A stretch of DNA of 64,000 nt, from contig JAHJOQ010000092.1 in assembly GCA_018820315.1 (NCBI GenBank), positions 6,591 to 70,590 of the forward strand, given 5' to 3'. Positions within the stretch are counted from its first letter, which is position 1; each line of letters opens with the position of its first letter. Source of the DNA: Candidatus Zixiibacteriota bacterium. Lineage in GTDB: Bacteria > Zixibacteria > MSB-5A5 > JAABVY01 > JAHJOQ01. The notes under the pieces were generated by a model. The model did not search any database, was not told where the DNA came from, and saw nothing but the letters and a program-made list of their open reading frames with translations. Below, one piece after another: positions 2,514 through 53,093 of this stretch. Position numbers and translations under genes: made by a program.

Positions 2514-2600
2514 CACAGGATTTGGGCTAAGTACTGAACTTACGCGATCTGCCGCAGCCTTCACTCGTAGCGCGACAAAACATGACAAAGGGGTTTGGAG

Positions 2601-35459: not shown

Positions 35460-36665
35460 TTACTTCGGCGCAAATCTATCGGACTCAATGTAATTCACAG
35501 TTTCGCTGTCTATCTCAATGCCATCAGTGTAGGTCACCCTAGCCAGAGAGAGTCTCCTGAACGTTCCGTTTGAAATGACCAGGTAGTCAGAGAATTCGCA
35601 GTCGCTGATCGCCACGCCAGTCATCTGTGCTCCCTCGAAGTTCGCACCTGATATCTTGCAGCTGGTAATCTCTCCACCAGATCCGAAAACTGACTCTACG
35701 CAATAGAGATACGCGAGATTGCTGTTGCGTAGGGTGAGGCTATCGACCTTGGAAATGTAGATTTTCGGCTCCGACATCTTCTCGCAACTGTCGATCGTGA
35801 GCAGCTGGCAGTCAGAGTTGACGATGTTGAGGCCATTGAAACCGCTGCATCCGAGGATGATCAACTGCTGGATCTTCGCTTTTCCAAAGGAGATGCTCTT
35901 GCTTTCGCATTTTTCAAACAGGAGCTTCTTTATAGTGCTTTCACCGAAGCTGCCTGACATGATGTTCGACTCAGAAATCTTTAGATCGTCGATTTTGGCA
36001 TTGCCGAATACAACGAGTTCCAACTTGCCGTCAATGATCTCAGTCAAGTCGAATCTGGCATGATAGAGACTTGTGTTGTGCCAATCTGGTTTGATTAGCT
36101 TGGTGTTAATGAACTCTGCCCTGGTGTATATACCGGAATCATCGGCGCAATTGCTAAATGTGCATTTTCTGAAGGCTGCATCACTTAGCTTTGCTCTAAC
36201 GCTTCGGCAGTCTGTGAAAGAACAGTTGTTGAATGTGCTCTGTTCAAAAGATACACCTCCGAATTCACACTCAATAAAACGGACATCCGTGAACTGGGAA
36301 TTCGAGAAGTCGTCGGAGGCGAACTTGACATTTCTGAACTCCGAATTTGTGATCCGGGCTTCCCTGCCCGCGACATTCTTAAATCCAATGTTCTTCAACG
36401 ATGACTGATTAAGCACGATGCCGGATATGTCCAGTTCCTCAATCAGCTTATCCTCGACGTGCCACCCCAACTGACCGACTTCGGCATTGAATTTCTCAAT
36501 GTCTTTGAGATCACTTTTTTCCTTGTCGCTTAATTCGGACGTCATACAGGAAACTCCTCCCAGGCTGATCATGACCACGAATACGAGCCATATCCGCAAG
36601 GGCTTAACGGTATTTCTCAAATCGCCTTCTCCACTCATAGTCGGGTATTTCGGCTCGGTCCACAT
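35460..36665 (-). CDS. pentapeptide-repeat protein with N-terminal signal/anchor (TagAB-like T6SS accessory candidate)
   Basis: Long runs of A(D/N)LxX-type pentapeptide repeats across aa 90-390. N-terminal hydrophobic segment LRIWLVFVVMISLGGVSC. Confidence 0.72.
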   Translation of the reverse strand: MWTEPKYPTMSGEGDLRNTVKPLRIWLVFVVMISLGGVSCMTSELSDKEKSDLKDIEKFNAEVGQLGWHVEDKLIEELDISGIVLNQSSLKNIGFKNVAGREARITNSEFRNVKFASDDFSNSQFTDVRFIECEFGGVSFEQSTFNNCSFTDCRSVRAKLSDAAFRKCTFSNCADDSGIYTRAEFINTKLIKPDWHNTSLYHARFDLTEIIDGKLELVVFGNAKIDDLKISESNIMSGSFGESTIKKLLFEKCESKSISFGKAKIQQLIILGCSGFNGLNIVNSDCQLLTIDSCEKMSEPKIYISKVDSLTLRNSNLAYLYCVESVFGSGGEITSCKISGANFEGAQMTGVAISDCEFSDYLVISNGTFRRLSLARVTYTDGIEIDSETVNYIESDRFAPK

Positions 36666-39600
36666 CTCTTTCGATTGTATACACTTTGTGAGTGTCAGTT
36701 CCGAATATCCCTCCGCCAGAGGTGTCCGAGTCTATCTGAATCTCGAAGTTCCACCTGCTGTCGAAATCGTAATGGGAAACGAGAGGGCTTCTCTGATTGA
36801 ACTTTATCGACATGAAGATTGATCGCTCGTTGTTGCCGGCAACGAAATTGAAGAACGTCTGCGCATCCCTGCCGCGCGGTATTATCCATCGGCTTGAGCC
36901 GTCATATTGCATCTGAATCTTTTTCCACTCTCCATCGGCGGCATAGACATAAATCACAATGTCTTCCAAATTCACTAAATTGCGTACATGCTGGAAAATA
37001 ACCAATCTGAATCTGTAGTCGACCGTCCCGCGATGTTCGTCGCGGATGAGGAACTTGTCCGATTCGAATGTCTCAAGGACTCGATCATGGTGACCGATTG
37101 TCGGGTTATTTTCAAGTATGTCATAATAGTCAACTGCTACCGCTATTCGCGGCTTTGTAGCCGCCTTGACAGGCTCCATCCTCTCGACATCACCCGCTGA
37201 ATCGAAGCAGATCTTCGAACCTGCCGAGTGGTCACTTCCCACGCCGTTGAACTCGCCTGCCTTGTTGAGTCTCGGATGCGGCCCTGCGGAGTCTGACACT
37301 ATCACTATGGGAGTGACTCGCCTGCCGGTAGCTCTAAGCGCAGGATAATCTGAGAAATCGTAGTAGCTGGTTTTCACCGAATTGTCACCGCTGTAATCTA
37401 GTCGGTTAATGGTGTAGAAGCCTCTTCGATGCGAATGCCCCGTCAATACGACCTGTATGGTGCGGCGAGTGACAAGATGTTCTTCATAGAGCGGCTGTCT
37501 GTTGGTCTCGAATGTCCCCTGATCATGATCGTCTGCATCCCAGTATGTGTCGAATTCCACATCTCCCTCTTCAGCAGTGCTCATGGGGATGCTTTCGAGA
37601 TAGCTGACAAATGTGAAGTGGCTTGTGAATATGATCTTCTTCTGATCTTCGATTGCGCGGTTCAACAGTGCAAGCTGAGTGTCGGTCACTGGATCATCGG
37701 CTCTCGGAAGATGGCCGAAGCCCTGATCTATTCCGGGGAAATCTAGCACATCTTCCTCATCTCCCCACGCCATTCCGACAAGGTTTTGGTCAGGAAATCC
37801 TGAAGCGAAATCAGAGAAAGGAGTGAACACAGTATAGAACCACTGAAGTTTCTCGTAATGGAACGTACCCATTTCCTTGACTACCCCATAAGTCTCTCCG
37901 AATGCGAGTGTCGCTTCATAGATGGTCAGATTGTGATCCGCAGCGATGCCGGGATTGGCACGGACCCATGCGACTCGAGGAGAGATACCGTATGGCAGCG
38001 CATACGCATCGTGATTTCCTGTGACAACGTAAACGGGCTTCTGATATCTCTTGTAGAAATAGACTATGAGCGTATATAGGGCGATAGCGTCAACATAATC
38101 CTGATATCTTGATTCGTATGAATCGTCGAGGGCAACCTGATCCCAAATCTGCTTAACCGTTCTACTTGTCCTGTCCGGATAGAGCATTTTGTTGAAATCA
38201 ATGAGATCTCCTGTAAGCATGAGCGCGTGGATCCCAGGATCACTTCCTACGCGGTCAAGCAGGGACTTTATGATGCGCGTGGAGACTCCAATCATAGAAC
38301 CTATTTTGGGAGAATCCTCCAGCGGGATTTCTTCCTCAGCGACAATCAGCGTCACTTGAACCTGCTGTGGCGAGTTGTTCGCCTCCGCAGATGAGATCGT
38401 AATCGAAGACTGATATGTGCCTGGTTCCCTGCCGCTGGCATTGGTGGAAATGAGAGCTGAATTTGGATTGTCGGATGTAGTAACGCCCGATGCAGGACTG
38501 ATGCTTACCCAGTCATCATCTGGAGCTGCAGTCCAATTCAGTGTGTCGCCTCCGGTATTGACTATGGTGACCGATTGAGGTCCTGTGTCGGCACCGCCCG
38601 GATGTGCAACAATCGCAACCGACTCGGGAGAAACGTGAAGGTGCGGAGGATTCTCAGTCTGTGGTGGCGGAGAGGAGGGAGGCACGACGATCTCCTCTCC
38701 CGGATATATCAGATCGGGATCGCCGCTTCTGAGACGCTGCGAATTCGGGATACCTGTTCCGCCGTCATAGTGCCAGAGCTGCTGCCATGTCATGCCATAG
38801 CGTGAGGCAATCTTGGAAAGCCAGTCGCCGCTCACAATGACATAGATGTCATATGTCGGGGCGGGAGAGGGGGGAGACTGAGAATCAGATTGAGTCTCCG
38901 ATGGTGTCTCAGATGATGGCGGTGCGCCTTCGGATGGCTGCGCTGCGACCGTCTCAAATGGATACTCAATGACCCTTGCTTCGCATCTGGACAATACGGT
39001 CTGCCTTGCGGCAAGGTGAATGTCTGTCAGATGTCCCATGTTCAAGTATGGTGGGCATTGCTCGTAATAGACCACAGGATGATAGGCCTGAATAGGGTTC
39101 ATCAGATCCGCTTCTGTGTGGTCAACATCATCTTCAGTTAATCTATAGCAGTACTGTCCACCCTCGATTATATTGGGACCATTCATATTTCGGAGAACAG
39201 TTCTTATTTGATCATCCTGAATCTCGTTTGATGTAATCTTTCCCGGTTCGACGCGATTTAGAGTATGTGTTGGAACGACACCCGGTCCGGATGCGGGAGC
39301 AGCACCGGCGGATGTTATCTCATGCCAGGTCTGATCATGCGGATAGAGCCAGAATAGATTATTAACACCGTTGGCGAGCAGATTAGTGTGTCTGATGGAG
39401 ACGCAGTACAACTGCGTGTACGCCGCGTCACGAAGCATCTGAAGGGATTGGCTGTCAAGAACCCCTTTGAATCTGGTGTCAGTGGCTATGACATTTTCAT
39501 CTAAGACTATACTGCGGAAAGATATTTCAACCGACCCATCCAATTGCGAAAGAGGATTAACTGAGAAACTTTTGGCCGGATCAAGGCCTCCGGTGATCTT

Positions 39601-39786
39601 TATCTGATAATCGATGTTGTCATTGGATAGTGTATAACCGTCATTTAGGAGTATTAGCAATTCAATATCCCGGGGACTCTGCGTGCCCACGACTACCTGC
39701 GGGGTTAGCAGCGACGGATATAATATCATTGCGGGAATGGCATAAATTACATCGTGACGTCTTCCGGTTGTACCTTGTGGACTCAT
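36604..39786 (-). CDS. large multidomain protein (1060 aa): N-terminal domain, Pro/Ser-rich linker, LysM peptidoglycan-binding domain, Ig-like domain, calcineurin-like metallophosphoesterase domain
   Basis: LysM: YDIYVIVSGDWLSKIASRYGMTWQQLW...LIYPGEEIVVP. MPP motifs: ALMLTGDLID, YVVTGNHDAY, VLTGHSHRRG. Confidence 0.6.
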   Translation of the reverse strand: MSPQGTTGRRHDVIYAIPAMILYPSLLTPQVVVGTQSPRDIELLILLNDGYTLSNDNIDYQIKITGGLDPAKSFSVNPLSQLDGSVEISFRSIVLDENVIATDTRFKGVLDSQSLQMLRDAAYTQLYCVSIRHTNLLANGVNNLFWLYPHDQTWHEITSAGAAPASGPGVVPTHTLNRVEPGKITSNEIQDDQIRTVLRNMNGPNIIEGGQYCYRLTEDDVDHTEADLMNPIQAYHPVVYYEQCPPYLNMGHLTDIHLAARQTVLSRCEARVIEYPFETVAAQPSEGAPPSSETPSETQSDSQSPPSPAPTYDIYVIVSGDWLSKIASRYGMTWQQLWHYDGGTGIPNSQRLRSGDPDLIYPGEEIVVPPSSPPPQTENPPHLHVSPESVAIVAHPGGADTGPQSVTIVNTGGDTLNWTAAPDDDWVSISPASGVTTSDNPNSALISTNASGREPGTYQSSITISSAEANNSPQQVQVTLIVAEEEIPLEDSPKIGSMIGVSTRIIKSLLDRVGSDPGIHALMLTGDLIDFNKMLYPDRTSRTVKQIWDQVALDDSYESRYQDYVDAIALYTLIVYFYKRYQKPVYVVTGNHDAYALPYGISPRVAWVRANPGIAADHNLTIYEATLAFGETYGVVKEMGTFHYEKLQWFYTVFTPFSDFASGFPDQNLVGMAWGDEEDVLDFPGIDQGFGHLPRADDPVTDTQLALLNRAIEDQKKIIFTSHFTFVSYLESIPMSTAEEGDVEFDTYWDADDHDQGTFETNRQPLYEEHLVTRRTIQVVLTGHSHRRGFYTINRLDYSGDNSVKTSYYDFSDYPALRATGRRVTPIVIVSDSAGPHPRLNKAGEFNGVGSDHSAGSKICFDSAGDVERMEPVKAATKPRIAVAVDYYDILENNPTIGHHDRVLETFESDKFLIRDEHRGTVDYRFRLVIFQHVRNLVNLEDIVIYVYAADGEWKKIQMQYDGSSRWIIPRGRDAQTFFNFVAGNNERSIFMSIKFNQRSPLVSHYDFDSRWNFEIQIDSDTSGGGIFGTDTHKVYTIERDVDRAEIPDYEWRRRFEKYR

Positions 39787-41118: not shown

Positions 41119-42027
41119 TTACTTCTCTAATGACCTGATGAAGCGTTCCGCCTCTTTAACTTGTCCTTCACTATATATCAGAAACTCATCTGTTTCGAAC
41201 GAGAAGGGTCTGTCATACCATACAGCGATAAGATTGATTGCTGCGTCGCATACACGGGCGAACTCCGGGTCCGCTTCGGGATGGCCGATGTCATACGCAT
41301 CTGAAGTATCGGCGAGGGCTGGGAGGAGACGTGAAGCGAGTCGCTTATCACTTATGTATTCCAGAGCAAGAATGACATCATAGCGACCCTCAAGAGGGGG
41401 AGTATCGATCTGAGACGCAAATTCATTCTTGAATTCCTCGTCGCCAAGCCTGGCCATGGCCAGTTTGATCTGTTTTCCCACGTTTGCATCGTCTTCCTGA
41501 TCAAGTTGTTTCCGGAGAGGCTTCATCGCACTCGCATCATCGATTCTACCGATCAATCGAGCTACGCCGCCCCTCACCACCGCATCTGTGTTGCTTAGGT
41601 TTGCTATCAAACCCTGCAGGATAGCACTGCTGATGCGAGAGCGGATGGACTGCAGAGCCGACGCGCGGACTTGAGCATCTTTGTCCCACAGGGCTTCGAC
41701 CAGAACAGTCGGGACACTCTCATCGTCGGTGAGCACCACGCAACTGAGAGCAAGCTCTCTGGTCTCGGGGTTCTCATTCTTAAGCAGCTCCAATAAGACC
41801 GGCATTGCAGGTGAACCGATCTCCTCGGCCTGGAGGAGTGCGTCATCGCTATCTTCCAGAACGGCTTTTCTAAGGCTATCGAGTTCCACTTTGTGTTCCC
41901 CTCTGCTTCTTTGCTGATCTCGGCCACCACATGCGATGTGGACGGCAACTACCAACGTCAGCACCAAGAGATACCAAGTGCTGACTCTCACGAATTTCAT
42001 CCTGTTCCTGCTGTGCCTATCAATCAA
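41119..42027 (-). CDS. HEAT/PBS-lyase repeat protein with N-terminal signal anchor (periplasmic; immunity-protein candidate)
   Basis: N-terminal TM VSTWYLLVLTLVVAVHIA. Repeated HEAT-like helical pairs (PETRELALSCVVL..., DAVVRGGVARLIGRI..., GKQIKLAMARLGD). 4-nt overlap with the upstream effector gene. Confidence 0.55.
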   Translation of the reverse strand: MIDRHSRNRMKFVRVSTWYLLVLTLVVAVHIACGGRDQQRSRGEHKVELDSLRKAVLEDSDDALLQAEEIGSPAMPVLLELLKNENPETRELALSCVVLTDDESVPTVLVEALWDKDAQVRASALQSIRSRISSAILQGLIANLSNTDAVVRGGVARLIGRIDDASAMKPLRKQLDQEDDANVGKQIKLAMARLGDEEFKNEFASQIDTPPLEGRYDVILALEYISDKRLASRLLPALADTSDAYDIGHPEADPEFARVCDAAINLIAVWYDRPFSFETDEFLIYSEGQVKEAERFIRSLEK

Positions 42028-43733
42028 GGATTCCTGTAAAAACTGGCTGACGACGCATGCCTCCGCGCATTATGACATTCATTGTCAGTTCGATCCGCTG
42101 GATTGTCTCTAATACTGATATCTGCGCCCTTATTCCGATTACCGTACCCGACGTTATGGCACCATCGATCACCCGCTCGCGACTGAAAAGGCCAGAGACC
42201 GTACATAAGTCTCTTGAGTGACCAGAAATCGGTCTTCTTGTGTGCAGAGTCGGGATCATCCTCTGAATGCGCAAGCGACGGATTTCTGAATCCATTTGCG
42301 AGCGCCATAGCATGGCCAAGTTCATGGGCGAGTGTCCTACCGATTTCGACCGCAGTCGAATTGAAGGCTCCACCCGTGCTGGCAAGGGCAATCCCCACGA
42401 GAGGCCAATTTCGATATCGCTTTGTCGAGTAGGTGATTCCGAATGCACCCTCTATATTTCGCACTACATACAGATTCAGTTTATTATCCTCAGTGGCGTG
42501 TCCCTCGGAGTCATTCGTCGTCATGATCGTGCGATATTCGGCATTTACCGATCCCCACGTTATGATGCCGGATCGCGACAGTGTCACAGCTTTTTCACGC
42601 CAGGCTGCAGTTCTGAATCTGACTCCGATTGGCCAGAGAATTTCGTTCGCAACGGCGATAGCATCATTGATCAGTGCCTGATTCCCGACTGGCGCCATTG
42701 CGCCGGTGTAATGAACACCACCCGTATCGTGGTCGGAGCCGTTTATTGTCAACCAATAGGGGCGAATAGTCTTGACTATCAGGGGAAGCACAACCACCTG
42801 AAGCGAAGCAATTTCTATTCGCTCCCGACCGCGCTTGAATTTGATCTTGACCGATGTGCTTCTCGGAACCGCTCCGCTGGGAGTCTTGGTCCGAAGCTGA
42901 AGTATGATTTCCCTGCCTGTCGGCAAAGGGTCGGGTGACACTACTTCCACGAGGGCAGTGTCCTCACTTTCCGCCATCAGTGACGTATTGCTTGCGAGGC
43001 ACTCTCTGGTCAGCTTGAGACGAAACGGCGTCTCGCGTGCCATCGTCACAACTGGCCCCTCCAAGTCAATATTGGCACATTTAGTTTCTATGAATCCTCT
43101 GACATCCGGTTCGGGAGCTCTGCCCCAGGGGCGTCCGGATGTAACCGTTGCATCAGTGTTCGACGGTGCCCTTTCGAATCGAACCAGCGAACGACGAATA
43201 ATGAAGACGTCATCAGTCGTATTGTCATCATCGGTAACCGAGTTCAATCTGGTTCGTGTTGTATTCCTGGCAATGCCGTCTGTTCTCAATCCGGTATCAG
43301 CCTGAAATCTCAGAATGGCTTCTTCCGATGCCTTGCCGAAGGTGCCGTCGACTTTGCCCGTGTAGTAACCGAGAAGCTGCAGTCTGCGTTGTATACCGGC
43401 CTGCATGGTGCCGTGCCCCACGCCTGAGTTTGCATTGCAATCGCCGAGAGTATCCCAGGCTGCCAGACAGATATCTTCGCCTGGGGCAGGTTCATTGATC
43501 TCACCATGTAGCTGCTTGACGACATAAGTTGTGCCGAGGACCGTCAATCGAGCGGTTCCGCCTTGGGCGATGCGCAGACCATAGTAGCCGTTGCCTTGCG
43601 GCCTGACCGGCGTATCCGAACCTTCAAGTGTGGCATCGCCACCATTGATAATGCTGTCGGCGTCGACGCCGGGTACTTTCTGAAAGCTTAGCAGCACATC
43701 AGCGGTCGTTGCCTCAACTTCCTGGTGACACAT
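42024..43733 (-). CDS. T6SS effector candidate: peptidoglycan-binding domain (PG_binding_1) + C-terminal HExxH zinc metallopeptidase domain, no signal peptide
   Basis: IQRRLQLLGYYTGKVDGTFGKASEEAILRFQADTGLRTDGI matches the PG-binding repeat. RTLAHELGHAMAL is a zincin HExxH site. Located immediately downstream of the PAAR gene. Confidence 0.62.
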   Translation of the reverse strand: MCHQEVEATTADVLLSFQKVPGVDADSIINGGDATLEGSDTPVRPQGNGYYGLRIAQGGTARLTVLGTTYVVKQLHGEINEPAPGEDICLAAWDTLGDCNANSGVGHGTMQAGIQRRLQLLGYYTGKVDGTFGKASEEAILRFQADTGLRTDGIARNTTRTRLNSVTDDDNTTDDVFIIRRSLVRFERAPSNTDATVTSGRPWGRAPEPDVRGFIETKCANIDLEGPVVTMARETPFRLKLTRECLASNTSLMAESEDTALVEVVSPDPLPTGREIILQLRTKTPSGAVPRSTSVKIKFKRGRERIEIASLQVVVLPLIVKTIRPYWLTINGSDHDTGGVHYTGAMAPVGNQALINDAIAVANEILWPIGVRFRTAAWREKAVTLSRSGIITWGSVNAEYRTIMTTNDSEGHATEDNKLNLYVVRNIEGAFGITYSTKRYRNWPLVGIALASTGGAFNSTAVEIGRTLAHELGHAMALANGFRNPSLAHSEDDPDSAHKKTDFWSLKRLMYGLWPFQSRAGDRWCHNVGYGNRNKGADISIRDNPADRTDNECHNARRHASSASFYRNP

Positions 43734-43740: not shown

Positions 43741-44916
43741 TTACCTCGGGAGTCTTCTCGCTCCTGACAAGTTGGGGAATTCGACTCGACTCTGTTCGGG
43801 CGGGATGTTCGCTTCAATTGCCTCGCCGTTACTGTCAAGAGTCCCTCTGCGGACCTCGCCGTTTGCGAAACGCACCACATAGGCCTCGGATGCGATCGGA
43901 TTTCCATTTTCGTCTTTCAGCACTATCTTGAGGCTGTCGCTGATCTGGAGCATGCCTGAACGGGCCCGGCAGCTTCCGACATCAACGATGAAGTAGAATC
44001 GCGGAAAGGCGTAGCTCTGCGTGCGAGATCTGCCGAGAGTCGGATCACCCGTCCTACCTCTGTAACGAAATGTCCACTCGGCCTCGACGTTGTCGCCGCT
44101 CGATTCAGCTTCGACCGCATCCACAAGCTCATCCGCAGCAGATGCATTCTTCTTGAATATCTGGAACACGGCCGCTGTACCCGATTCGAAGCCCGATATC
44201 CCAGCCTGCAGGGTGACCGCCTCACCGACTCTGGCCGTAGTGGCTGACCATGTGGCGCTGGTTACGGCTCTGACCGAGACTTCATAGCTGCCTTCCTGCA
44301 CGCCGCTCTGTCTGATTCTGCCTGCAAGTGCGCCTTCGGTTGTCTCGCCATCGGGGGATGTCACAGAATATCTGGCTCCCGTGATTGGTCGCCCTCCACC
44401 ATCAACGAAATTAACATCGAGATAATGCTGCTCTTCTACCTCCGCCTCGTCGGAGGTGCCCTCGCTCTGCCCGCCGCCTGCCTGGCCGCCTCCACCGCCG
44501 CCGCCCCCGCCGCCATTGCCGATCAAAACATTTGGGCTGCCGATTATTATCTTCGCCTTGTTTGTCGGAGGTTTCTGAAATGCTGTGCCTGGAGGTGTAG
44601 GGATATGTGGGGGAGTATTCGATGCCTGGCTGTCGACAGTTGCCGCTGGCAAGCCCTCGATTTTGACCGACGAGCTCAGTCCGCTGTCGAGCATTCCCAT
44701 GAATGGATGTGGCAGGGGAGTAGGTACTGGACCGCCGGGGGTCGGTACCATGACGATATGAACGTCGACACCGACGACTTGATCATTCTGCTTGGCAGCA
44801 GGCATATTGTTGATCAGAACTGTCACCGCTGTACCGATTACCGTACCGACCGGCATGTCAGTCGGATCGTTGCAGGTCATCGCCGTGTCGCCCATTCTTG
44901 CGGCAGGTTTTCCCAT
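43741..44916 (-). CDS. PAAR-domain spike-tip protein with Gly-rich linker and about 220-aa C-terminal extension
   Basis: MGKPAARMGDTAMTC...VIGTAVTVLINNMPAAKQNDQV contains literal PAAR motifs. Poly-Gly linker GGGGGGGGGGGQAGGG. Start taken at internal ATG 44916; the track uses TTG 44943. Confidence 0.72.
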   Translation of the reverse strand: MGKPAARMGDTAMTCNDPTDMPVGTVIGTAVTVLINNMPAAKQNDQVVGVDVHIVMVPTPGGPVPTPLPHPFMGMLDSGLSSSVKIEGLPAATVDSQASNTPPHIPTPPGTAFQKPPTNKAKIIIGSPNVLIGNGGGGGGGGGGQAGGGQSEGTSDEAEVEEQHYLDVNFVDGGGRPITGARYSVTSPDGETTEGALAGRIRQSGVQEGSYEVSVRAVTSATWSATTARVGEAVTLQAGISGFESGTAAVFQIFKKNASAADELVDAVEAESSGDNVEAEWTFRYRGRTGDPTLGRSRTQSYAFPRFYFIVDVGSCRARSGMLQISDSLKIVLKDENGNPIASEAYVVRFANGEVRRGTLDSNGEAIEANIPPEQSRVEFPNLSGARRLPR

Positions 44917-45029
44917 GGTTCCCCGGAGTTGTCTCTCGTTCAATCAACGGCAGAAAAGTTAAGAATGTTTGCGGCAGGAGTCAACAAATAGTTGTCAGGG
45001 GTGTTTCACCATTTGTGCTCAGATTCGAC

Positions 45030-45339: not shown

Positions 45340-45409
45340 ATCGCAAGTGGGATAATATACTCGACTAAAGTAGATCGCAATAATCCTGTATATGAGAGGA
45401 GCTTCAAAT

Positions 45410-47530
45410 ATGGTCTCCAGCAACTTCGCACCAGCAACCCCGCCAAAGAGACGTGAACTCCAAAATCTCAGCATCATCTCTTGTATCCTATTTTGCATTC
45501 TTACAGTCACAATAACTCCGGTGGCCAACGCCGAACGCGCGGCACCATCTGAAATGCAGCAAGTCTGCCAAAACTGGATTACGGAAATAACGTATTCCCA
45601 TGGCTCGTGGGCAGGGGGGACAGCTCCATCGATTAGCTCCGTCGATGACATTCTGATGAATGACACGCTGCTTGCGCATGTGTACGCCATAGAGCCGTCA
45701 GGCTATGTCATAGTGCCTGTTCTCAAAGAGTTGCCACCTGTAAAAGCCTACTCTACAGTGTCGAGCTTCAATCCGAAAGACGCCGATGGATTCGCTGCGA
45801 TGATTCGCGAGGTGCTGGAGCATCATGCGCGGCTATTCGTGAATACCTACGGCAGCCTTGATGTGTCGCAATCCGGAATGGACACGGAATTATTCGGTGA
45901 AGCAAATGGGGCGGAGTGGACGCGTCTGAACGTGGATACCGATATATTCGCATCGAGCCTGGAGAGCTCCAGCCGAGCTCCGATGGAAACCCTTGGTCCG
46001 TTGGTGACCACGAGTTGGCATCAGGGGAGCCCATACAACTTGTTCTGTCCCGATGGTGACGGTGGCAGATGCATAGTAGGCTGTGTGGCGACAGCATCAG
46101 CGCAGATTCTCGCTTACTGGCAGTGGCCCTCATCTGGTTCCGGAAGCTCGAGCTACTACTGGAGCGGCGACAATTCTTGCGGCGGCAGCACACCCGGTCA
46201 CACTCTGGGGGTCGACTACTCTGATCTCTATGACTGGAACAATGTTGTTGATGTCTGCGGTAGTAGCTGCACGCAGGCGCAGAAAGAGGCCGTCGCTGAG
46301 ATTTGCTATGAAGTCGGCGTTGCATTCGAGATGGATTATGGCAAATGCGCCTCAGGAGCTTACACTGCCGATGCTCAGATGGTTTTTCCGACATACTTCA
46401 GATTTGACTCAGGTGTTTCCCGTCAGAATCGCTCTTCCCATACACCCAGTTCCTGGTTTGCGCTGATTGGCGAAGAGATTTCCGCGGGAAGGCCGATACA
46501 ATACAGAATCAACACTCATTCGATCGTCTGCGACGGCTGGCAAACGGTCGGCGAAACGAAGCAGTACCACATGAATTATGGATGGGCCGATAGCCATACA
46601 GCATGGTACTCGATCGACAACCTCTACTGCAATTGGAGCGGGTGCGATCCGATGGTCGAATACGCTATTATCGGCATTCAGCCGGAGCCCGACTCAGACA
46701 GCGACGGCTTGCTCAATTCCGATGACAATTGCCCGACTGAATATAACCCTGATCAGACGGATACTGACGGCGACGGACTCGGCGATGTCTGCGATAACTG
46801 CATGAACGACCCGAATCCTTCACAGGGAGATGTGGATGGCGACGGCATGGGCAACGTCTGCGATCCCGATGCCGACGATGACGGCATTCTCAACGAGGCC
46901 GACAACTGCGATCTCGTAATCAATCCGGCTCAGCAGGATGGCGACGGCGACGATGTCGGCGACGCATGCGATAATTGCCTTGAAGTTCAAAACCCATATC
47001 AGTACGACGAGAATTTCGACGGTGTCGGTGACGCCTGCGATGGCGAGATGCATATTCAGAGTTACATCCTGCCGGACGGCTATCTGGGTCAGCCTTATTC
47101 ATATCAATTCTGGGCGGTTGGTGGAGTGGAACCTTATACGTGGACCAAGGTTTCCGGCCAGCCTCCTTATGGTACCATATTCCAGGCTGGTGAAATCGGC
47201 ACGATCACCGGCACTCCATCGTGGCCGGGGGAGAGCTACTTACAGGTGGCGATGCAGGATTCTGATACTCCGCCAAACTACGATACCGTAGCGATCAGTA
47301 TATCTATTTACGAACTGCAGTTTCTCTGTGGCGACGCCGACAATAACTTAGCTGTCGACATTGACGATGTCGTCCATCTCGTGTCATATGTCTTCTCAGG
47401 AGGTTCGTCTCCCGATCCTGTTGAGATTGCGGATGTCGACTGTAGCGATGGTGTCGACATTGACGACATAGTGTATCTTGTAGAGTACATATTCTCTGGC
47501 GGCGCGGAGCCTTGCGCAGGCTGTCCATAG
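45410..47530 (+). CDS. secreted peptidase C10 (streptopain family) with thrombospondin type-3 Ca-binding repeats and C-terminal dockerin pair
   Basis: [12 protein letters not shown]...[17 protein letters not shown] (catalytic Cys block), HSIVCDGW (His block) and YHMNYGWAD align block-for-block with SpeB. DxDxDG TSP3 repeats ([29 protein letters not shown]...). Terminal [16 protein letters not shown] / [22 protein letters not shown] precedes ATG 45410; the track start is 45392. Confidence 0.82.
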
Positions 47531-47607
47531 TCTCCCTGCCCTGCGAAGGCCTGCAAATGTGACTATTGATCGGGCGGCTCATTTCAATGAGACCGGAGGA
47601 ATACAAC

Positions 47608-49245
47608 ATGATCAAGTCGAGAGTTGTGACTCTGTTTTTCCTGACTCAGTTTATTGAAATCATTCTTCTGTCGAGTGGGCTCTATGCTCAGCAGAGCACG
47701 TCCGGACCCGAACCATTGCCGGGAACCGACCCGGGACTGCGACCTCCGACGCGATCGCAAGTTGTTATAACAGGTGTACCAGCCTATATATGGCATCATG
47801 GCTGCGGACCTACGGCTGTCGGAATGGTAGTCGGTTTCTGGGATGGCAATGGTTTCTCTGATCTTGTAGAGGGGGACGCGAGCACGATGACGTCGGATGT
47901 GCGGGCAATGATTGCCGACGACAGCGATTATCCCGGTTGTGGTCAAAGTTGGTACGATCACTATCAGGATTACTCATGTCCGATAGATAATGGATCGAAC
48001 ATCGTTCCGGATCGATCCGAATCTGGTGGTGCACATGTGGACAATTGTGTGGCTGACTTCATGCACACGTCAATGAGTAGCTACTGGAACGCATATGGAT
48101 GGAGCTGGTTTGGCGATGATAATCTCGGTTTCGTTGAATATGTCGACCTGGTGCTGCCGGAGGCAAACCCTTATGCGCAATCGGACATGTATGAAGATTT
48201 AACCTTCGATGATTACAAAGAGGAAATCGATAGCAGGCGACCTGTTGTTCTGCTGGTCGACACTGACGGGGACGGCGGAACCGATCACTTCGTGACTGGA
48301 ATCGGATATGACGAAGGCACCTTGAACTACTATGGCATATACGACACATGGGATTATCAGGTCCACTGGTATCGATGGCGACCACTTGCACCCGGCAACT
48401 CCTGGGGGATTTTCGGACTGACGACCTTTGGACTCGATGTCATTTGTGTCGACAGTGATAGCGATGGTTTCGGCGATCCGGGCTATCCTGATAACACGTG
48501 CCCGGAAGACAATTGTCCTTCTGATTTTAATTTTGATCAGGCAGATACAGATAGCGACGGGCTGGGTGATGTATGCGACCCAGACATTGATGATGACTCA
48601 GTCCCCAACGAAGAGGACAACTGTCCCTACACTGTGAATCCGTCTCAGCTCGACGATGACGGTGATGCAATCGGCAACATCTGTGACAATTGTCCCGACA
48701 CGTATAATCCGGAGCAATATGACGAGAATTCCGACGGAACGGGCGACGCATGCGATGGGGATCTTCACATTCAAAGCTACGAACTTCCGGACTGCACAGT
48801 CAATGAGCCTTATTTCTACCAGTTTTGGGCGGTAGGAGGAGTGGAGCCTTACTACTGGCAAAAAATAGGTGGCCAGCCGCCATATGGTTGTGTGTTCACC
48901 GGTGGTCAGGTAGGTACTATCACTGGCACGCCGACATGGGTTGGTGACTACTACCTGATCATTGCGCTGGCTGACTCAGATTCGCCCCCGAACTCTGATA
49001 CGATCGCGGTGTCAGTCTCGGTTATCGAACCTCCTAGGCCGTGCGGCGATGTTACCGGCGAAGGTGGCGTCGATATAGATGACGTTGTTTATCTTATCGC
49101 CTATATTTTCCTGGGTGGTTCAGCCCCCGATCCGCTGGAAATAGGAGATGTAGATTGCAGCGGGCAGATTGACATTGATGATGTTGTTTATATGATAGCT
49201 TACATATTTACTGGTGGACCGGCGCCGTGCGCCGACTGCGAATGA
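47608..49245 (+). CDS. secreted papain-like cysteine peptidase-domain protein (C10/C39-like) with TSP3 repeats and C-terminal dockerin pair; paralog of the upstream gene
   Basis: GGAGGA RBS before ATG 47608. Signal peptide. HHGCGPTAVGM Cys block and HFVTGIGYD His block. TSP3 repeats and terminal region co-linear with 45410..47530. Confidence 0.45.
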   Translation: MIKSRVVTLFFLTQFIEIILLSSGLYAQQSTSGPEPLPGTDPGLRPPTRSQVVITGVPAYIWHHGCGPTAVGMVVGFWDGNGFSDLVEGDASTMTSDVRAMIADDSDYPGCGQSWYDHYQDYSCPIDNGSNIVPDRSESGGAHVDNCVADFMHTSMSSYWNAYGWSWFGDDNLGFVEYVDLVLPEANPYAQSDMYEDLTFDDYKEEIDSRRPVVLLVDTDGDGGTDHFVTGIGYDEGTLNYYGIYDTWDYQVHWYRWRPLAPGNSWGIFGLTTFGLDVICVDSDSDGFGDPGYPDNTCPEDNCPSDFNFDQADTDSDGLGDVCDPDIDDDSVPNEEDNCPYTVNPSQLDDDGDAIGNICDNCPDTYNPEQYDENSDGTGDACDGDLHIQSYELPDCTVNEPYFYQFWAVGGVEPYYWQKIGGQPPYGCVFTGGQVGTITGTPTWVGDYYLIIALADSDSPPNSDTIAVSVSVIEPPRPCGDVTGEGGVDIDDVVYLIAYIFLGGSAPDPLEIGDVDCSGQIDIDDVVYMIAYIFTGGPAPCADCE

Positions 49246-50102
49246 GGGACGAAGTTAAGCAGATTATCATCATCTCGGATGGTACCGGTAAAACGGCCAA
49301 GAGGCTGATGGACGCAGTCCTCTCCCAGTACTCCGGTCACGAAGGGGAATTCCGGCTTGGAAAGATATACAGCTCGGCCAGAACAAGAGAGCAGCTCGAC
49401 AATATCCTCGATGAGATTCCTGATGGGTGCCTTGTCATTTTCTCGATTATCTCCTCCGATGTCTGGACTTACCTGCATGACCGCCTTCACGATGAACAGA
49501 TATTGCACATTAATATTCTCGAACCTATGCTCAGCACAATGGAGAAGTTTCTCGGCCTCCATCCCGAGTACAAACCGGGACTGCTTCATATCATAGATGA
49601 CAGCTACTACAACAAGATTGATGCAATCGGGTATACTGTCGAACACGATGACGGTCTTGGGCACCAGCTCGGTGAAGCCGATCTGGTTATCATCGGACCA
49701 TCGAGAACCTGCAAAACACCTATTAGCATGTACCTGGCATGCAATGAGGGACTGAAGGTCGCCAACATTCCGATTTTCCCCAACGATCAAATGAAGAGCA
49801 GGTTGCTCAAGAGGCTCGAAGAGATAGAGAGTTGCAGGATTTTCGGCGTTACCATGAATCCTGATGTTCTCGTATTTGTGAGAGAAGACAGGGCGGAGTT
49901 TTTTGGCGGCAGCGAGGCAGGCAAGGCGGCGCTTGATGTCTACCGGGACACATCGTATGTGCGGCAGGAGATCACATATCTGAGGAATCTCTGCAGCAGT
50001 CAAGGTTGGCAGGTCGTCGATGTAACGCGAAGAGCGATAGAGGAAATCTCCAACGAAATCATGCACAGGTTGAAGGCTGATTGCGGGTCGTCCCGTCGCT
50101 GA
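49242..50102 (+). CDS. pyruvate, phosphate dikinase / PEP synthetase regulatory protein (PSRP, kinase/pyrophosphorylase, DUF299)
   Basis: IIIISDGTGKTA N-terminal motif and P-loop-like IIGPSRTCKTP. About 286 aa. ATGA overlap with the upstream stop. Confidence 0.78.
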   Translation: MRDEVKQIIIISDGTGKTAKRLMDAVLSQYSGHEGEFRLGKIYSSARTREQLDNILDEIPDGCLVIFSIISSDVWTYLHDRLHDEQILHINILEPMLSTMEKFLGLHPEYKPGLLHIIDDSYYNKIDAIGYTVEHDDGLGHQLGEADLVIIGPSRTCKTPISMYLACNEGLKVANIPIFPNDQMKSRLLKRLEEIESCRIFGVTMNPDVLVFVREDRAEFFGGSEAGKAALDVYRDTSYVRQEITYLRNLCSSQGWQVVDVTRRAIEEISNEIMHRLKADCGSSRR

Positions 50103-50356: not shown

Positions 50357-53032
50357 ATGAAACCAACCGATGCCAGAATTAGCTTCATCTCTGCAGCAGT
50401 GCTGACACTTATGTTGCTCTGCGCCGGTACAAGCGTGCTTCAATCGGGCGAACTGTCCGGAGCGAGATCCGCCTCGGCCGATCCGATCTGGATCTACGAC
50501 TCTGATCTCACTGTAACTCACGTCGAAACCGCCGATCTTAACGCTGACAATATCAAAGATGTTATCGCCAGTGAGTACAGTTCCGATTACTACGGAACGC
50601 CCTCACGGGTGCTCGCCATTGATGGCGCTACCGGCGATACGATTTGGTCGTATTTGATTCAGGATGGTATCCGATCGATGACAATCGGTGATCTCAATAA
50701 TGACGGCGTCGCGGATGTTGTGTTGGGCGCCTCCTACAACGCGACCGGTACACCCGATGGACAGATTCATGCGCTCGATGGCAAGGATGGTGCAGTGATC
50801 TTCACCTGTCCTATCGGCGCAACAATCGAAGATGTTGTGATCGGCAATTTTACCGGCGATGAGAATATGGATGTGGTCGCCGCCAGCTTTGATGATTATG
50901 TCTACGCTGTCGATGGAGAAAGCGGCGCCCTGCTCTGGAGCAACGAAATTGGCAGCATGTTTGTCAATGCGGTCGCCGCCGCAGATGTCAACAACGATAA
51001 CATCGATGATGTAGCTTATGCTCATGAGTACTTAGCGGGATACGACAATTATTACGGCATGCTTGATGGCACCGACGGTTCTGATATCTGGGCCGATACA
51101 GTGCCGTATGTCGTTGTAGATGTATTGCTCGCGGATGTCGACGGAGATTCGGACATCGAATTGATCGTAGGAGGAATCTACAGCGACGATCATGCTGAGC
51201 TGTTTGTGCGTGATGCTGCGAAAGGCGATCTCGAATGGTCATACAATCTCGGCAGTGTCGAGCATGTGAATGGAAATATTCTAATCGAAACTCATGATGT
51301 TGATCAGGACACTGACCTCGATATAGTCGTTGGTCTGTATCTTGGGCCGAGTCCCATGCTGGCATTCGACGGCTCCGGACCGACTGCCATGTGGGTAGCT
51401 GATCCTATTGGAGTGAACACTCGCGATATGACTTTTGGCGATTTCACGGGTGACTACAATCTCGAAATCGCCGTCGCAGGTGGCGACAGGGTGGTGGTGC
51501 TGAAGGCTGATGGTGGTGAGGAGCTTTACTATTATGCTGTCGGAGGATCGATGTACAGTGTCGCAACAGGCGATTTCGATGACGACGGCGTGACGGACAT
51601 CGCAGCCGGGGGCGGTGCTGATTTCACCGGCACTCCGCCCAACCCTCTGAAATCAGTCTGGGCACTCAAGACAGTCGTCTCCACGGTTAAATGGGAATTC
51701 GATTTCGGCAGCTACGGAAATGCGATAGCGATGGGTGATCTAAATGGCGACGGTTGCGACGATGTCGTAGGTGTCTGCTCGAGCACCCGGGAGGCATGGG
51801 CTATCGACGGCGACAAAGGGACCGAACTTTGGCATTGGCAGGCGTCTGATAACTTGTTCTGCGTCACAATTGATGACTTTGACGGCAATGGTCTCGGTGA
51901 TGTCGCTGTCGGCGGCTACGACAATATTGTCACAGCACTCAACGGAGAGACAGGGTTGGTGCTGTGGCAGTTTGTGGACGCGACCGATGATTACTACCGC
52001 AAATGCCTGAAATCCGCAGACTTGAATGGCGACGGCAACTTCGATGTGATCGCCGGTAATGAAGATAACTTCATCTATGCGATAAATGGCGAAAGCGGAG
52101 GATCGCTCTGGTCCTACGATTGCGGATCGGATGCCACGGACGTGATAGTTATGCAAATGAATGGCACAGGACCGCTGGATGTGATCGCAACAGTGGGCAG
52201 TGGGAAAGTAGTCGTTGTCGACGGTTCCGATGGCTCGGAGCTTTGGACGTTTGATGGTCCCGCCGGATTAGAGCACCTTGCCGATCACAACATGCTCGAT
52301 TTTCCAGCGGAATCATTCTTCGATGTCTTCTGTGCTGTGACACCATCTGGCACAAAAGGCGTCATAAAGGTGAACTCAGAGAGTCACGATCAGGATTGGT
52401 TTACGCCTCTCGCTATCGGCTCCAACACGCACGGTATGTGGTGCGATGATGTCAATGACGACGGAGTTGCAGACGTGGCAGTAAACGGTGGGACAACAGC
52501 GAGCTACGTGACACTTCTCGATGGAGTCACCGGAGAGATTCTCTGGGACTTCCCGACGGGAGGAGAAGTCAATACGGTCGTAATCTACGATGTTAATCTC
52601 GACGGACTAAATGAAGTAATCGCCGGATCCGACGATCAGAATGTCTACGCACTGAACGGTCAAACAGGCGAGCTCATCTGGAATTATAGCACGGCAGATG
52701 ACGTGATTCATGTCCTGGTCGGCGATGTCGACTGTGACGGCAGACCGAATATTGCATGTGTGACGTTCGGCAGTGATGGGGTCATCTATGCCTTCGAATC
52801 GCTTGCCCCCATCGGTCCGTCATATGTCTGCGGCGATGCTGACGGCAGCGAAGCGGTAGATATCGACGACGTCGTATTTCTGATAACATATATATTCGCA
52901 AGCGGACCAGCGCCCGATCCACTCGATTCTGGAGAAGTCGACTGCACTGGAGCTATTGATATCGATGATGTAGTTTACTTGATAGCGTACATATTTGCGA
53001 GCGGCCCCGCGCCGTGCGCGAATTGCCTGTAG
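50357..53032 (+). CDS. secreted FG-GAP/VCBS-repeat beta-propeller protein with C-terminal dockerin pair
   Basis: Signal peptide. More than 12 repeats of the DxNxDGxxD(V/I) type (DLNNDGVADVVLGA, DVNNDNIDDVAY, DLNGDGCDDVVG...). Terminal DIDDVVFLITYIFASGPAP / DIDDVVYLIAYIFASGPAPC. Confidence 0.6.
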   Translation: MKPTDARISFISAAVLTLMLLCAGTSVLQSGELSGARSASADPIWIYDSDLTVTHVETADLNADNIKDVIASEYSSDYYGTPSRVLAIDGATGDTIWSYLIQDGIRSMTIGDLNNDGVADVVLGASYNATGTPDGQIHALDGKDGAVIFTCPIGATIEDVVIGNFTGDENMDVVAASFDDYVYAVDGESGALLWSNEIGSMFVNAVAAADVNNDNIDDVAYAHEYLAGYDNYYGMLDGTDGSDIWADTVPYVVVDVLLADVDGDSDIELIVGGIYSDDHAELFVRDAAKGDLEWSYNLGSVEHVNGNILIETHDVDQDTDLDIVVGLYLGPSPMLAFDGSGPTAMWVADPIGVNTRDMTFGDFTGDYNLEIAVAGGDRVVVLKADGGEELYYYAVGGSMYSVATGDFDDDGVTDIAAGGGADFTGTPPNPLKSVWALKTVVSTVKWEFDFGSYGNAIAMGDLNGDGCDDVVGVCSSTREAWAIDGDKGTELWHWQASDNLFCVTIDDFDGNGLGDVAVGGYDNIVTALNGETGLVLWQFVDATDDYYRKCLKSADLNGDGNFDVIAGNEDNFIYAINGESGGSLWSYDCGSDATDVIVMQMNGTGPLDVIATVGSGKVVVVDGSDGSELWTFDGPAGLEHLADHNMLDFPAESFFDVFCAVTPSGTKGVIKVNSESHDQDWFTPLAIGSNTHGMWCDDVNDDGVADVAVNGGTTASYVTLLDGVTGEILWDFPTGGEVNTVVIYDVNLDGLNEVIAGSDDQNVYALNGQTGELIWNYSTADDVIHVLVGDVDCDGRPNIACVTFGSDGVIYAFESLAPIGPSYVCGDADGSEAVDIDDVVFLITYIFASGPAPDPLDSGEVDCTGAIDIDDVVYLIAYIFASGPAPCANCL

Positions 53033-53057: not shown

Positions 53058-53093
53058 GGTGGCCTGCTCTCGCAGCGGGCCACCTTCTGTTTC
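53058..53093 (+). terminator. rho-independent terminator after the FG-GAP gene
   Basis: GGTGGCCTGC...GCAGCGGGCCACC hairpin followed by TTCTGTTTC. Confidence 0.6.

What the first reader, a model, noticed from the sequence alone, without database searches (positions are those of the whole stretch)
45392..49245. Tandem paralogous secreted cysteine peptidases (streptopain-type C10 and a diverged papain-like partner) with TSP3 repeats and dockerins
The first gene aligns block-for-block with SpeB around the catalytic Cys, the His and the Trp-rich oxyanion region. The second shares the TSP3 and dockerin architecture but has a different Cys/His core (HHGCGPTA ... HFVTGIGYD). This suggests duplication followed by divergence of specificity, or a pseudo-peptidase. 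Thrombospondin type-3 Ca-binding repeats on C10 peptidases are unusual.
Basis: partly seen in the sequence, partly recalled or inferred. Interest (0 to 1): 0.55.

Follow-up and report, generated by a model that had tools for sequence, protein, structure and literature searches.

The report
Two dockerin-tagged secreted cysteine peptidases
Two neighbouring genes of an uncultured Zixibacteria-type bacterium encode secreted cysteine proteases of two different families that carry the same calcium-binding, dockerin-ended tail; this is an ordinary, recurrent design in that phylum, not a freshly duplicated gene pair.

Summary
Both ORFs exist exactly as described. Gene 1 (45392-47530) is a complete streptopain-family (C10) zymogen. 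It has a signal peptide, a SpeB-type pro-domain, a catalytic domain with Cys231/His376, TSP3 repeats, an Ig-like module and a C-terminal dockerin. Gene 2 (47566-49245, probable start 47608) carries the same TSP3-Ig-dockerin tail. Its catalytic head is not C10. It belongs to Pfam PF13529 (Peptidase_C39_2), a large family with 2,700 representatives at 50% identity. Cys80 and His241 are invariant in the 47 aligned sequences, and the predicted fold is papain-like. The two heads are related only at clan level (hhalign 70%, catalytic residues in register). Only the tails are paralogous (59% protein identity, no DNA repeats). So "tandem duplication then divergence" and "pseudo-peptidase" are rejected, and two different heads on one shared tail cassette is supported. 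C10+TSP3+dockerin is not unusual here: 63 of the best 120 homologue clusters share it. The same dockerin tail ends four proteins in this window. In related genomes it ends M28, S8, C1 and other secreted proteins. The gene pair is adjacent only in close relatives. Most likely function: Ca-stabilised extracellular proteases tethered through the dockerin. No cohesin partner was found. New member of a known kind; low to moderate interest.

The parts
45392..47530 (+). Gene 1: secreted C10 (streptopain-family) cysteine peptidase zymogen with a TSP3-Ig-dockerin tail, 712 aa (alternative start ATG 45410 behind GAGAGGAG)
   Evidence: ORF; Pfam; PDB; sequence; homologues
45392..45532 (+). Signal peptide (KRR n-region, hydrophobic core, V-A-N-A cleavage motif; residues 1-47)
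   Evidence: Read from the translation; modelled as a lone helix 20-40; inference, no predictor was run
45533..45991 (+). SpeB/interpain-type pro-domain (Inhibitor_I69-like), residues ~48-200
   Evidence: Inhibitor_I69 E=7.5e-4, below cut-off; 9 of 48 homologues match I69, best 1.1e-7; Foldseek to zymogens 1dki/1pvj/3bb7 over 358-407 columns, TMt 0.73-0.81
45992..46684 (+). C10 catalytic domain, residues ~201-431; Cys231 (46082-46084), His376 (46517-46519), N395-Y396-G397-W398
   Evidence: Pfam PF01640 E=5.5e-47; alignment to SpeB and interpain; residues invariant in 120-121 sequences
46685..47047 (+). TSP type-3 Ca-binding repeats, six Asp-rich loops with paired Cys, residues 432-552
   Evidence: Pfam TSP_3; COMP/thrombospondin-2 E=8e-47 to 1e-36; motif listing
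47048..47320 (+). Ig-like module (He_PIG type), residues 553-643
   Evidence: He_PIG E=0.008, sub-threshold; 22 of 48 homologues match, best 1.1e-10
47321..47527 (+). C-terminal dockerin-type module: two 12-residue Ca loops each followed by a helix, four conserved Cys; residues 644-712
   Evidence: Tail profile against PDB dockerins; tail HMM; Dockerin_1 in 33 of 48 homologues
47566..49245 (+). Gene 2: secreted Peptidase_C39_2 (PF13529) clan-CA cysteine peptidase with the same TSP3-Ig-dockerin tail; probable start ATG 47608 (545 aa), RBS GGAGG 47595-47599
   Evidence: ORF; Pfam; start codon
47608..47688 (+). Signal peptide (MIKSRVV...SGLYA), followed by the family-conserved QQSTSGP
   Evidence: Alignment A1; inference, no predictor was run
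47689..48441 (+). PF13529 papain-fold catalytic domain, residues 42-292 of the 559-aa ORF; Cys80 (47803-47805), His241 (48286-48288), Asp260/Trp262/Asp263
   Evidence: Pfam E=1e-8, 36.4 bits against cut-off 24; invariant residues; model pLDDT 82.6; Foldseek clan-CA hits; 2,700 family representatives
48442..48762 (+). TSP type-3 repeats, five Asp-rich loops, residues 293-399
   Evidence: Pfam TSP_3 E=1.5e-11; PDB COMP E=2.7e-41
48763..49038 (+). Ig-like module (He_PIG type), residues 400-491
   Evidence: About 60% identical to the module of gene 1; PF05345 in homologue P0066
49039..49242 (+). C-terminal dockerin-type module, residues 492-559
   Evidence: Dockerin_1 E=0.009; PDB 5lxv_B E=0.003; tail profile
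49227..50102 (+). PpsR-like kinase/pyrophosphorylase gene, translationally coupled to gene 2 (ATGA overlap at 49242-49245); same transcription unit, functional link unknown
   Evidence: Pfam Kinase-PPPase E=2.7e-67; sequence; same gene order in L001 and L011
50357..53032 (+). FG-GAP/PQQ beta-propeller protein with the same dockerin tail; terminator-like hairpin follows at 53058-53084
   Evidence: Pfam; tail HMM; terminator scan

Best explanation
These are two co-transcribed genes for Sec-exported, catalytically competent clan-CA cysteine endopeptidases of different families. Gene 1 is a C10 streptopain/interpain-type zymogen. By analogy with SpeB and interpain, its N-terminal pro-domain blocks the enzyme until it is removed, probably autocatalytically (inferred). 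Gene 2 is a member of the large PF13529 'C39-like' family. It has no long pro-domain, and its Cys80/His241 (with Asp/Asn260 or Asp263) form the active site. Both heads are fused to the same three-part tail. The tail consists of a Ca-binding TSP type-3 'wire' acting as a rigid spacer, an Ig-like module, and a C-terminal dockerin-type double EF-hand. The tail is a mobile cassette that this lineage attaches to many secreted proteins, most of them peptidases. Its most likely role is Ca-dependent tethering of the enzymes to a cohesin-type partner or other cell-surface receptor. Extracellular protein would then be degraded close to the cell, as proposed for the dockerin-bearing peptidases of Cloacimonadota. 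Shown here: gene structure, family membership, conserved catalytic residues, predicted folds, pro-domain, tail homology and distribution. Inferred: export, activation, Ca binding, tethering and substrate.
For: C10 membership and catalytic residues. Pro-domain. PF13529 membership with invariant Cys/His. Papain fold of gene 2. Catalytic residues of the two heads in register at clan level. Shared tail only. TSP3. Dockerin. The tail is C-terminal in 81 of 99 matched stretches and sits on M28, S8, C1, C39-like, DJ-1/PfpI, beta-helix and FG-GAP proteins. In the PF13529 family the position after the head is alternatively occupied by T9SS CTDs, IPTL-CTERM, PKD, Big_5 or dockerin, all modules that sort or display proteins at the surface. 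No terminator lies between the genes, gene 2 has its own RBS, and an ATGA overlap links it to the next gene. Precedents: a C10-dockerin protein in a rumen metagenome (PMC6487960), and dockerin-tagged S8 and C25 peptidases plus a cohesin scaffoldin in Cloacimonadota (PMC8542988).
Against: No cohesin-bearing partner was found in the window or in ~0.95 Mb of held sequence, but that search was insensitive and covers only a small part of any genome. Pfam Dockerin_1 and He_PIG are below threshold in the two window proteins themselves. Signal peptides were read by eye. No substrate information exists for either clade. PF13529 domains also occur as cell-wall-lytic domains of phage endolysins (PMC8223927), so gene 2 may not act on proteins. 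How the proteins would cross an outer membrane is unknown.
Confidence: 0.65

Rival explanations
1. One reading: the two genes are tandem paralogues made by duplicating one peptidase gene, after which the second copy diverged in specificity or decayed into a pseudo-peptidase.
For: The genes are adjacent on the same strand and share the tail architecture at 59% identity. The heads are both clan CA and align remotely with their catalytic residues in register.
Against: The heads belong to separate, ancient families (PF01640 and PF13529), each with hundreds to thousands of members across several phyla. BLASTP finds no similarity between the heads. Cys/His are invariant in gene 2's family. The tails share no DNA-level repeats and are no closer within a genome than between orthologues. 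The same cassette sits on unrelated heads.
Confidence: 0.04
2. Gene 2, and possibly the whole unit, is an antibacterial or cell-wall-directed weapon. The PF13529 head would cleave peptidoglycan peptides, as in phage endolysins, and the enzymes would serve competition or predation rather than nutrition, in keeping with the adjacent T6SS cluster.
For: Peptidase_C39_2 is listed as an enzymatically active domain of endolysins (PMC8223927). Weak structural matches to phage 'lysozyme' and Lysin A multidomain proteins. A divergent PAAR gene and a PG_binding_1/HExxH effector-like gene lie immediately upstream, and PAAR adjacency is conserved in L001.
Against: Both proteins have Sec signal peptides and so are not T6SS cargo. 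The structural matches to lysins are weak (E~1e-3, TM 0.3-0.36), and the best PDB matches are proteinases such as IdeS, staphopain and cathepsins. More distant C10-TSP3-dockerin genes lie in unrelated housekeeping contexts. No cell-wall-binding domain is present.
Confidence: 0.18
3. The pair is a functional couple: the C39-like peptidase matures or regulates the C10 zymogen, or the reverse, as a dedicated processing enzyme.
For: Co-transcription is likely. The order C10, C39-like, PpsR-like, propeller is conserved in three lineages at 59-75% identity. Identical tails would place both enzymes on the same anchor.
Against: Only 5 of 85 loci with a C10 homologue have a C39-like gene nearby. Four of these are two close lineages, and in the fifth the gene lies 5 kb away. 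Homologues at 47-54% identity stand alone. From established knowledge, SpeB and interpain zymogens activate themselves.
Confidence: 0.1

Closest known systems
Streptopain SpeB (S. pyogenes) and interpain A (Prevotella intermedia), MEROPS family C10
   Same: Pfam C10 domain; Cys-His dyad in aligned motifs; pro-domain plus catalytic-domain fold (Foldseek E~1e-21, TMt 0.78-0.81 to the zymogens); Sec signal peptide.
   Different: 23-30% identity only. SpeB's NWGW is NYGW in the whole clade. A ~280-aa TSP3-Ig-dockerin extension is absent from SpeB and interpain. The host is an environmental Zixibacteria-type organism, not a pathogen.
Zixibacteria 'C10 family peptidase' proteins with TSP_3 and Dockerin_1 (e.g. 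P0123-P0183; JGI label 'Peptidase C10 family/Dockerin type I domain/Thrombospondin type 3 repeat')
   Same: Same full-length architecture at 42-69% identity over 84-100% of the length. The closest relatives share the same neighbourhood.
   Different: None of substance; gene 1 is one more member. None has been characterised experimentally as far as the held literature shows.
Pfam PF13529 Peptidase_C39_2, including PDB 3erv (putative C39-like peptidase, Bacillus anthracis)
   Same: Score above the Pfam cut-off; invariant Cys/His; papain-like fold; 3erv is among the structural hits (TMt 0.51).
   Different: No sequence-level PDB relative. The clade has its own conserved N-terminal QQSTTGP segment and a ~70-residue insertion between Cys and His. 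It is fused to surface-display modules. It is not a true C39 bacteriocin-processing domain: there is no ABC transporter and it is Sec-exported.
Dockerin-tagged peptidases of cellulosome-like systems: Cloacimonadota 'Ca. Stygibacter' (PMC8542988), rumen C10-DOC (PMC6487960), R. flavefaciens NlpC/P60-dockerin protein (PMC3573020)
   Same: Signal peptide, then a peptidase, then a C-terminal dockerin; proposed tethering to a cohesin scaffold for degrading polypeptides.
   Different: No cohesin or scaffoldin has been identified here. The dockerin is bracketed by four conserved Cys and preceded by TSP3 and Ig modules. The dockerin-tagged proteins seen so far are mostly peptidases rather than glycoside hydrolases.
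Thrombospondin/COMP type-3 repeats and bacterial TSP3 proteins (NCBIfam MtsC-type)
   Same: Asp-rich Ca-binding loops with paired Cys, E=1e-37 to 1e-47 against COMP and TSP-2; partial matches to NF047638.
   Different: Only 5-6 loops. They act as a linker inside a hydrolase, not as part of an adhesive matrix protein. The full-length NCBIfam cut-offs are not reached.

Membership tests
MEROPS C10 / Pfam PF01640 (streptopain family), gene 1 | Profile match above the curated threshold over the whole domain | tested here: met
   161 bits against a cut-off of 26, model positions 1-194 of 194
MEROPS C10 / Pfam PF01640 (streptopain family), gene 1 | Catalytic Cys then His, aligned with the SpeB and interpain dyad | tested here: met
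   GCVATA (Cys231) and H376 align with SpeB GCVATA and GHAFV; invariant in 120-121 sequences
MEROPS C10 / Pfam PF01640 (streptopain family), gene 1 | Trp-containing motif after the His (SpeB NWGW) | tested here: inconclusive
   The motif is NYGW. The second Trp (W398) is invariant; the first is Tyr in all 121 sequences. The functional consequence is unknown.
MEROPS C10 / Pfam PF01640 (streptopain family), gene 1 | N-terminal inhibitory pro-domain of the SpeB/interpain (I69-like) fold | tested here: met
   The model matches zymogens 1dki/1pvj/3bb7 over 358-407 columns. I69 is sub-threshold here (20.4 bits against 25), but 9 of 48 homologues match it at E<=0.01 (best 1.1e-7).
MEROPS C10 / Pfam PF01640 (streptopain family), gene 1 | Cysteine endopeptidase activity and autocatalytic maturation | not testable with these tools
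   Needs biochemistry
Pfam PF13529 Peptidase_C39_2, gene 2 | Profile match above the curated threshold | tested here: met
   36.4 bits against a cut-off of 24. The best stretch covers only model positions 86-143, with a second stretch also present. All 120 listed homologues carry PF13529.
Pfam PF13529 Peptidase_C39_2, gene 2 | Conserved catalytic Cys and His in a papain-like fold | tested here: met
   C80 and H241 are invariant in 47 sequences. Model pLDDT is 82.6. All the leading Foldseek PDB hits (E 1e-3 to 1e-2) are clan CA, including 3erv, but TM-scores are only 0.3-0.6.
MEROPS C39 proper (bacteriocin-processing peptidase), gene 2 | N-terminal domain of an ABC exporter that cleaves double-glycine leader peptides | tested here: not met
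   The protein has a Sec signal peptide and no ABC transporter domains; do not file it as C39 proper
Thrombospondin type-3 repeat (PF02412), both genes | Profile match above threshold and Asp-rich loops with conserved Cys | tested here: met
   36.5 and 44.2 bits against a cut-off of 25; COMP and TSP-2 at 1e-37 to 1e-47; Asp, Asn and Cys columns invariant in 48 sequences
Thrombospondin type-3 repeat (PF02412), both genes | Calcium binding | not testable with these tools
   Inferred from the motif only
Type I dockerin (PF00404), both genes | Profile match above the curated threshold | tested here: inconclusive
   Gene 2 scores 16.6 bits against 22.9; gene 1 has no hit. The tail profile hits PDB dockerins (best E=3.5e-4; 14 of 15 hits). 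33 of 48 homologues match at E<=0.01. Other proteins with the same tail pass the cut-off.
Type I dockerin (PF00404), both genes | Duplicated ~22-residue segment, each a 12-residue Ca loop (D-x-D/N-x-D/N...D) followed by a helix | tested here: met
   [22 protein letters not shown] and [22 protein letters not shown]; these columns are invariant in alignment A2
Type I dockerin (PF00404), both genes | A cognate cohesin in the same organism | tested here: inconclusive
   None in the window (Pfam scans). A single-sequence cohesin search of 3,918 ORFs found nothing significant. The whole genome is not available.

The most novel reading that the evidence does not exclude
Zixibacteria and their relatives may possess a phylum-wide, dockerin-tagged exoproteome dominated by peptidases (C10, C39-like, C1, S8, M28, reprolysin-type) and beta-propellers. 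This would amount to a protein-degrading counterpart of the cellulosome. Its anchor, whether a cohesin scaffold or something new, is unidentified. Alternatively, the Cys-bracketed dockerin-like tail may itself act as a lineage-specific sorting or attachment signal, equivalent in position to the T9SS CTD and IPTL-CTERM found on the same catalytic heads in other phyla.
Probability: 0.25. Interest if true: 0.55.

Novelty: new member of a known kind. Interest (0 to 1): 0.25.

Why it matters
On its own the locus adds two more members to families that public pipelines already label 'C10 family peptidase' and 'C39 family peptidase'. Its value is as a clean example of modular evolution. One TSP3-Ig-dockerin cassette is reused on unrelated hydrolase heads, and four dockerin-ended proteins occur within 64 kb. 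This suggests that these uncultured sediment and groundwater bacteria display a protease-rich enzyme set on their surface. If a cohesin-type anchor were found, it would extend the cellulosome principle to protein scavenging in another candidate phylum. No paper in the held library mentions Zixibacteria together with dockerins.

Full report
OBSERVATION. Gene 2 most likely starts at ATG 47608. GGAGG sits 8 nt upstream of that codon, and nearly all homologues begin at the aligned Met15. Window G+C is about 50-53% with nothing unusual at the locus.

GENE 1. Pfam gives Peptidase_C10 at E=5.5e-47 across the full model, TSP_3 at 3.7e-9, and a sub-threshold Inhibitor_I69 hit at residues 50-131. PDB streptopain and interpain A match at about 1e-28. 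The alignments place GCVATA (Cys231) on SpeB's [15 protein letters not shown] (His376) on GHAFVIDG, and NYGW on NWGW. Across 120 homologues plus the query, Cys231, His376, Asn395, Tyr396, Gly397 and Trp398 are invariant, so the Trp-to-Tyr change is a trait of the whole clade and not decay. An AlphaFold model of residues 1-432 (69-sequence alignment, pLDDT 92.3) matches the zymogen structures best. SpeB 1pvj/1dki and prointerpain 3bb7 give E~1e-21, 358-407 aligned columns and TMt 0.73-0.81, while the mature enzymes align over only about 250 columns. The N-terminus (KRR, hydrophobic stretch, VANA|E) reads as a type I signal peptide (sequence; inference). The JGI gene call for the identical protein (P0121, 669 aa) starts 43 codons later and loses this signal peptide.

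GENE 2. The head is not C10. Pfam assigns Peptidase_C39_2 (PF13529; 36.4 bits against a cut-off of 24). There is no sequence relative in the PDB. The word-indexed search returned 238 homologues, and all 120 listed carry PF13529. They come from Zixibacteria, Eisenbacteria, Cloacimonetes, Bacteroidota and Anaerolineae, and several are named 'C39 family peptidase'. An exhaustive profile search finds 2,700 representatives at 50% identity (683 at E<=1e-30). In a 47-sequence alignment Cys80 (HGCGPTA), His241 (DHFVTGIGY) and Asp232 are invariant, and Thr261/Trp262/Asp263 nearly so. This excludes a pseudo-peptidase. The AlphaFold model (pLDDT 82.6) retrieves only clan-CA enzymes among its leading Foldseek hits: IdeS/Mac-1, staphopain (TMt 0.63), cathepsins, phytochelatin synthase, interpain, and the B. 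anthracis C39-like peptidase 3erv (TMt 0.51). E-values are about 1e-3. Viral hits are likewise papain-like or lysin-associated and weak. The protein is Sec-exported and lacks ABC-transporter domains, so it is not a true C39 bacteriocin-processing peptidase.

HOW THE TWO ARE RELATED. BLASTP aligns only the C-terminal parts (48% over 367 columns, about 59% over the last 280 aa). The catalytic regions give nothing. A local profile-profile comparison of the trimmed catalytic alignments gives 70% probability (E=3.9e-5, 173 columns). It puts Cys80 on Cys231, His241 on His376 and Trp262 on Trp398. This is clan-level kinship between separate families. At the DNA level the tails share no repeats of 20 nt or more beyond short GAC-rich motifs, and they differ at most third-codon positions. 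In the two lineages that keep the pair (L001-L003 and L011), orthologous tails are 63-66% identical against 57-62% for the two tails of one genome. The cassette was therefore already on both genes before those lineages split, and it is not being homogenised. The history is domain shuffling, not tandem duplication of a peptidase gene.

THE TAIL. The TSP3 region has six Asp-rich loops in gene 1 and five in gene 2, with paired Cys. It scores 1e-37 to 1e-47 against COMP and thrombospondin-2. Next comes an Ig-like module: He_PIG at E=0.008 here, but matched by 22 of 48 homologues, best 1.1e-10. Last is a 68-residue module with two D-x-D-x-N/S-x-x-x-D-x-x-D loops, each followed by a helix, and four conserved Cys. 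Pfam Dockerin_1 is sub-threshold in the window proteins. A profile of eight tails, however, hits 15 PDB sequences of which 14 are dockerins, aligned across both repeats (best E=3.5e-4). 33 of 48 homologues match Dockerin_1. An HMM of the tail finds four carriers in this window: gene 1, gene 2, the FG-GAP/PQQ propeller at 50357-53032, and the 1324-aa DUF7901 protein at 4574-8548. It also finds 82 ORFs in 42 of 86 sources, and 81 of its 99 matched stretches end within 12 residues of the stop codon. Other carriers include M28, S8, C1 and C39-like peptidases, a DJ-1/PfpI protein, beta-helix proteins and propellers, mostly above the Dockerin_1 cut-off. A reprolysin-type protein with TSP_3 and Dockerin_1 lies in L005.

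HOW COMMON. 63 of the best 120 clusters for gene 1 combine C10 and TSP_3 over 84-100% of the length, many also with Dockerin_1 or He_PIG. Named ones come from Zixibacteria, and JGI already labels one with all three domains. All 48 aligned full-length members have C10 and TSP_3. The closest species representatives in GTDB are Zixibacteria MAGs at 61-63% identity.

CONTEXT. No terminator separates genes 1 and 2. Gene 2's stop overlaps the ATG of a PpsR-like kinase/pyrophosphorylase gene (ATGA). A strong terminator-like hairpin comes only after the propeller gene (53058-53084). The order PAAR (divergent), C10, C39-like, PpsR-like, propeller recurs in L001-L003 and L011. Only 5 of 85 C10 loci have a C39-like gene nearby, and C10-TSP3-dockerin genes at 47-54% identity stand alone among housekeeping genes. 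Functional coupling of the two peptidases is therefore not supported beyond one sub-lineage. Upstream on the minus strand lies a T6SS cluster. Both peptidases have Sec signals, so a direct link to it is unlikely.

MECHANISM. Most likely the two enzymes are exported by Sec. The C10 zymogen is activated by removal of its pro-domain, as in SpeB and interpain (established knowledge; inferred here). Both are held at or near the cell surface through the Ca-loaded TSP3-Ig-dockerin tail, for extracellular proteolysis. The closest published model is the dockerin-tagged S8 and C25 peptidases with a cohesin scaffoldin in Cloacimonadota (PMC8542988). A C10-dockerin protein was also noted in a rumen metagenome (PMC6487960). 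The weak point is the missing cohesin: none is in the window, and a limited search of held sequence found none. A cell-wall-lytic role for gene 2 cannot be excluded, because PF13529 occurs in endolysins (PMC8223927).

VERDICT. These are new members of known kinds. Interest is low to moderate. The only lead with wider reach is the apparently phylum-wide set of dockerin-tagged, peptidase-rich secreted proteins with no identified anchor.

Noticed in passing
window 20829-44943 (minus strand): A type VI secretion cluster. It comprises TssK-like (24010-25458), TssG (25529-26437), VgrG (28513-30231), TssC (30818-32245), ClpV, a pentapeptide-repeat protein (35460-36665), a LysM+BACON+Metallophos protein (36604-39786), a HEAT-repeat protein (41119-42027) and PAAR (43741-44943), which is divergent from the C10 gene. 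Four papers in the held library contain both 'Zixibacteria' and 'type VI secretion', each term about once; none was read.
   Followed up: partly
window 42024-43733 (minus strand): A 569-aa protein with a PG_binding_1 domain and a C-terminal HELGH zincin motif, lying between the PAAR gene and a HEAT-repeat gene. It is a candidate peptidoglycan-directed T6SS effector.
   Followed up: no
window 32734-35288 (minus strand): ClpV appears as two abutting ORFs with a 1-nt overlap at 33831: Clp_N+AAA+lid (485 aa) and AAA_2+D2-small (365 aa). This is either a genuinely split gene or a frameshift in the assembly.
   Followed up: no
window 4574-8548 (+): A 1324-aa protein with DUF7901 (E=1.5e-42) and the same C-terminal dockerin tail. 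It contains CGPAAVAN and GGHYVTVAG motifs that look like a Cys/His peptidase core, but the profile comparison with gene 2's family was not significant.
   Followed up: partly
window 50357-53032 (+): An 891-aa FG-GAP/PQQ-type beta-propeller protein ending in the same dockerin tail. It is conserved downstream of the peptidase pair in L001 and L011, and a strong terminator-like hairpin follows it at 53058-53084.
   Followed up: partly
window 49227-50102 (+): A cytoplasmic-type PpsR-like kinase/pyrophosphorylase gene (E=2.7e-67) sits between genes for secreted proteins. Its in-frame ATG overlaps gene 2's stop codon (ATGA at 49242-49245). The arrangement is conserved in L001 and L011, and there is no obvious functional connection.
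   Followed up: partly
window 47689-47712 (gene 2, residues 42-49) and alignment A1: Directly after the signal peptide, the PF13529 clade has a nearly invariant A|QQSTTGP segment with Gln at the predicted mature N-terminus. It is followed by a confidently modelled N-terminal strand. From memory, this recalls the Bacteroidetes 'Q-rule' (pyroglutamate after signal peptidase I cleavage).
   Followed up: no
window 19-1857 and 2595-4172 (+): Two proteins carry weak T9SS-type C-terminal domains: Por_Secre_tail at 21 bits and FlgD_ig at 26.2 bits, both just under their cut-offs. The genome may therefore use T9SS-style sorting alongside the dockerin tail.
   Followed up: no
window 45392-45520; protein P0121: The public (JGI) gene call for the identical protein is 669 aa. 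It starts 43 codons downstream of ATG 45392 and so omits the signal peptide. Homologues of 700-716 aa support the longer form.
   Followed up: partly
L005 10697-14010: In a related Zixibacteria contig, a protein of 1373 aa combines reprolysin-type metallopeptidase domains with TSP_3 and Dockerin_1. This shows the same cassette on a metallopeptidase head.
   Followed up: no
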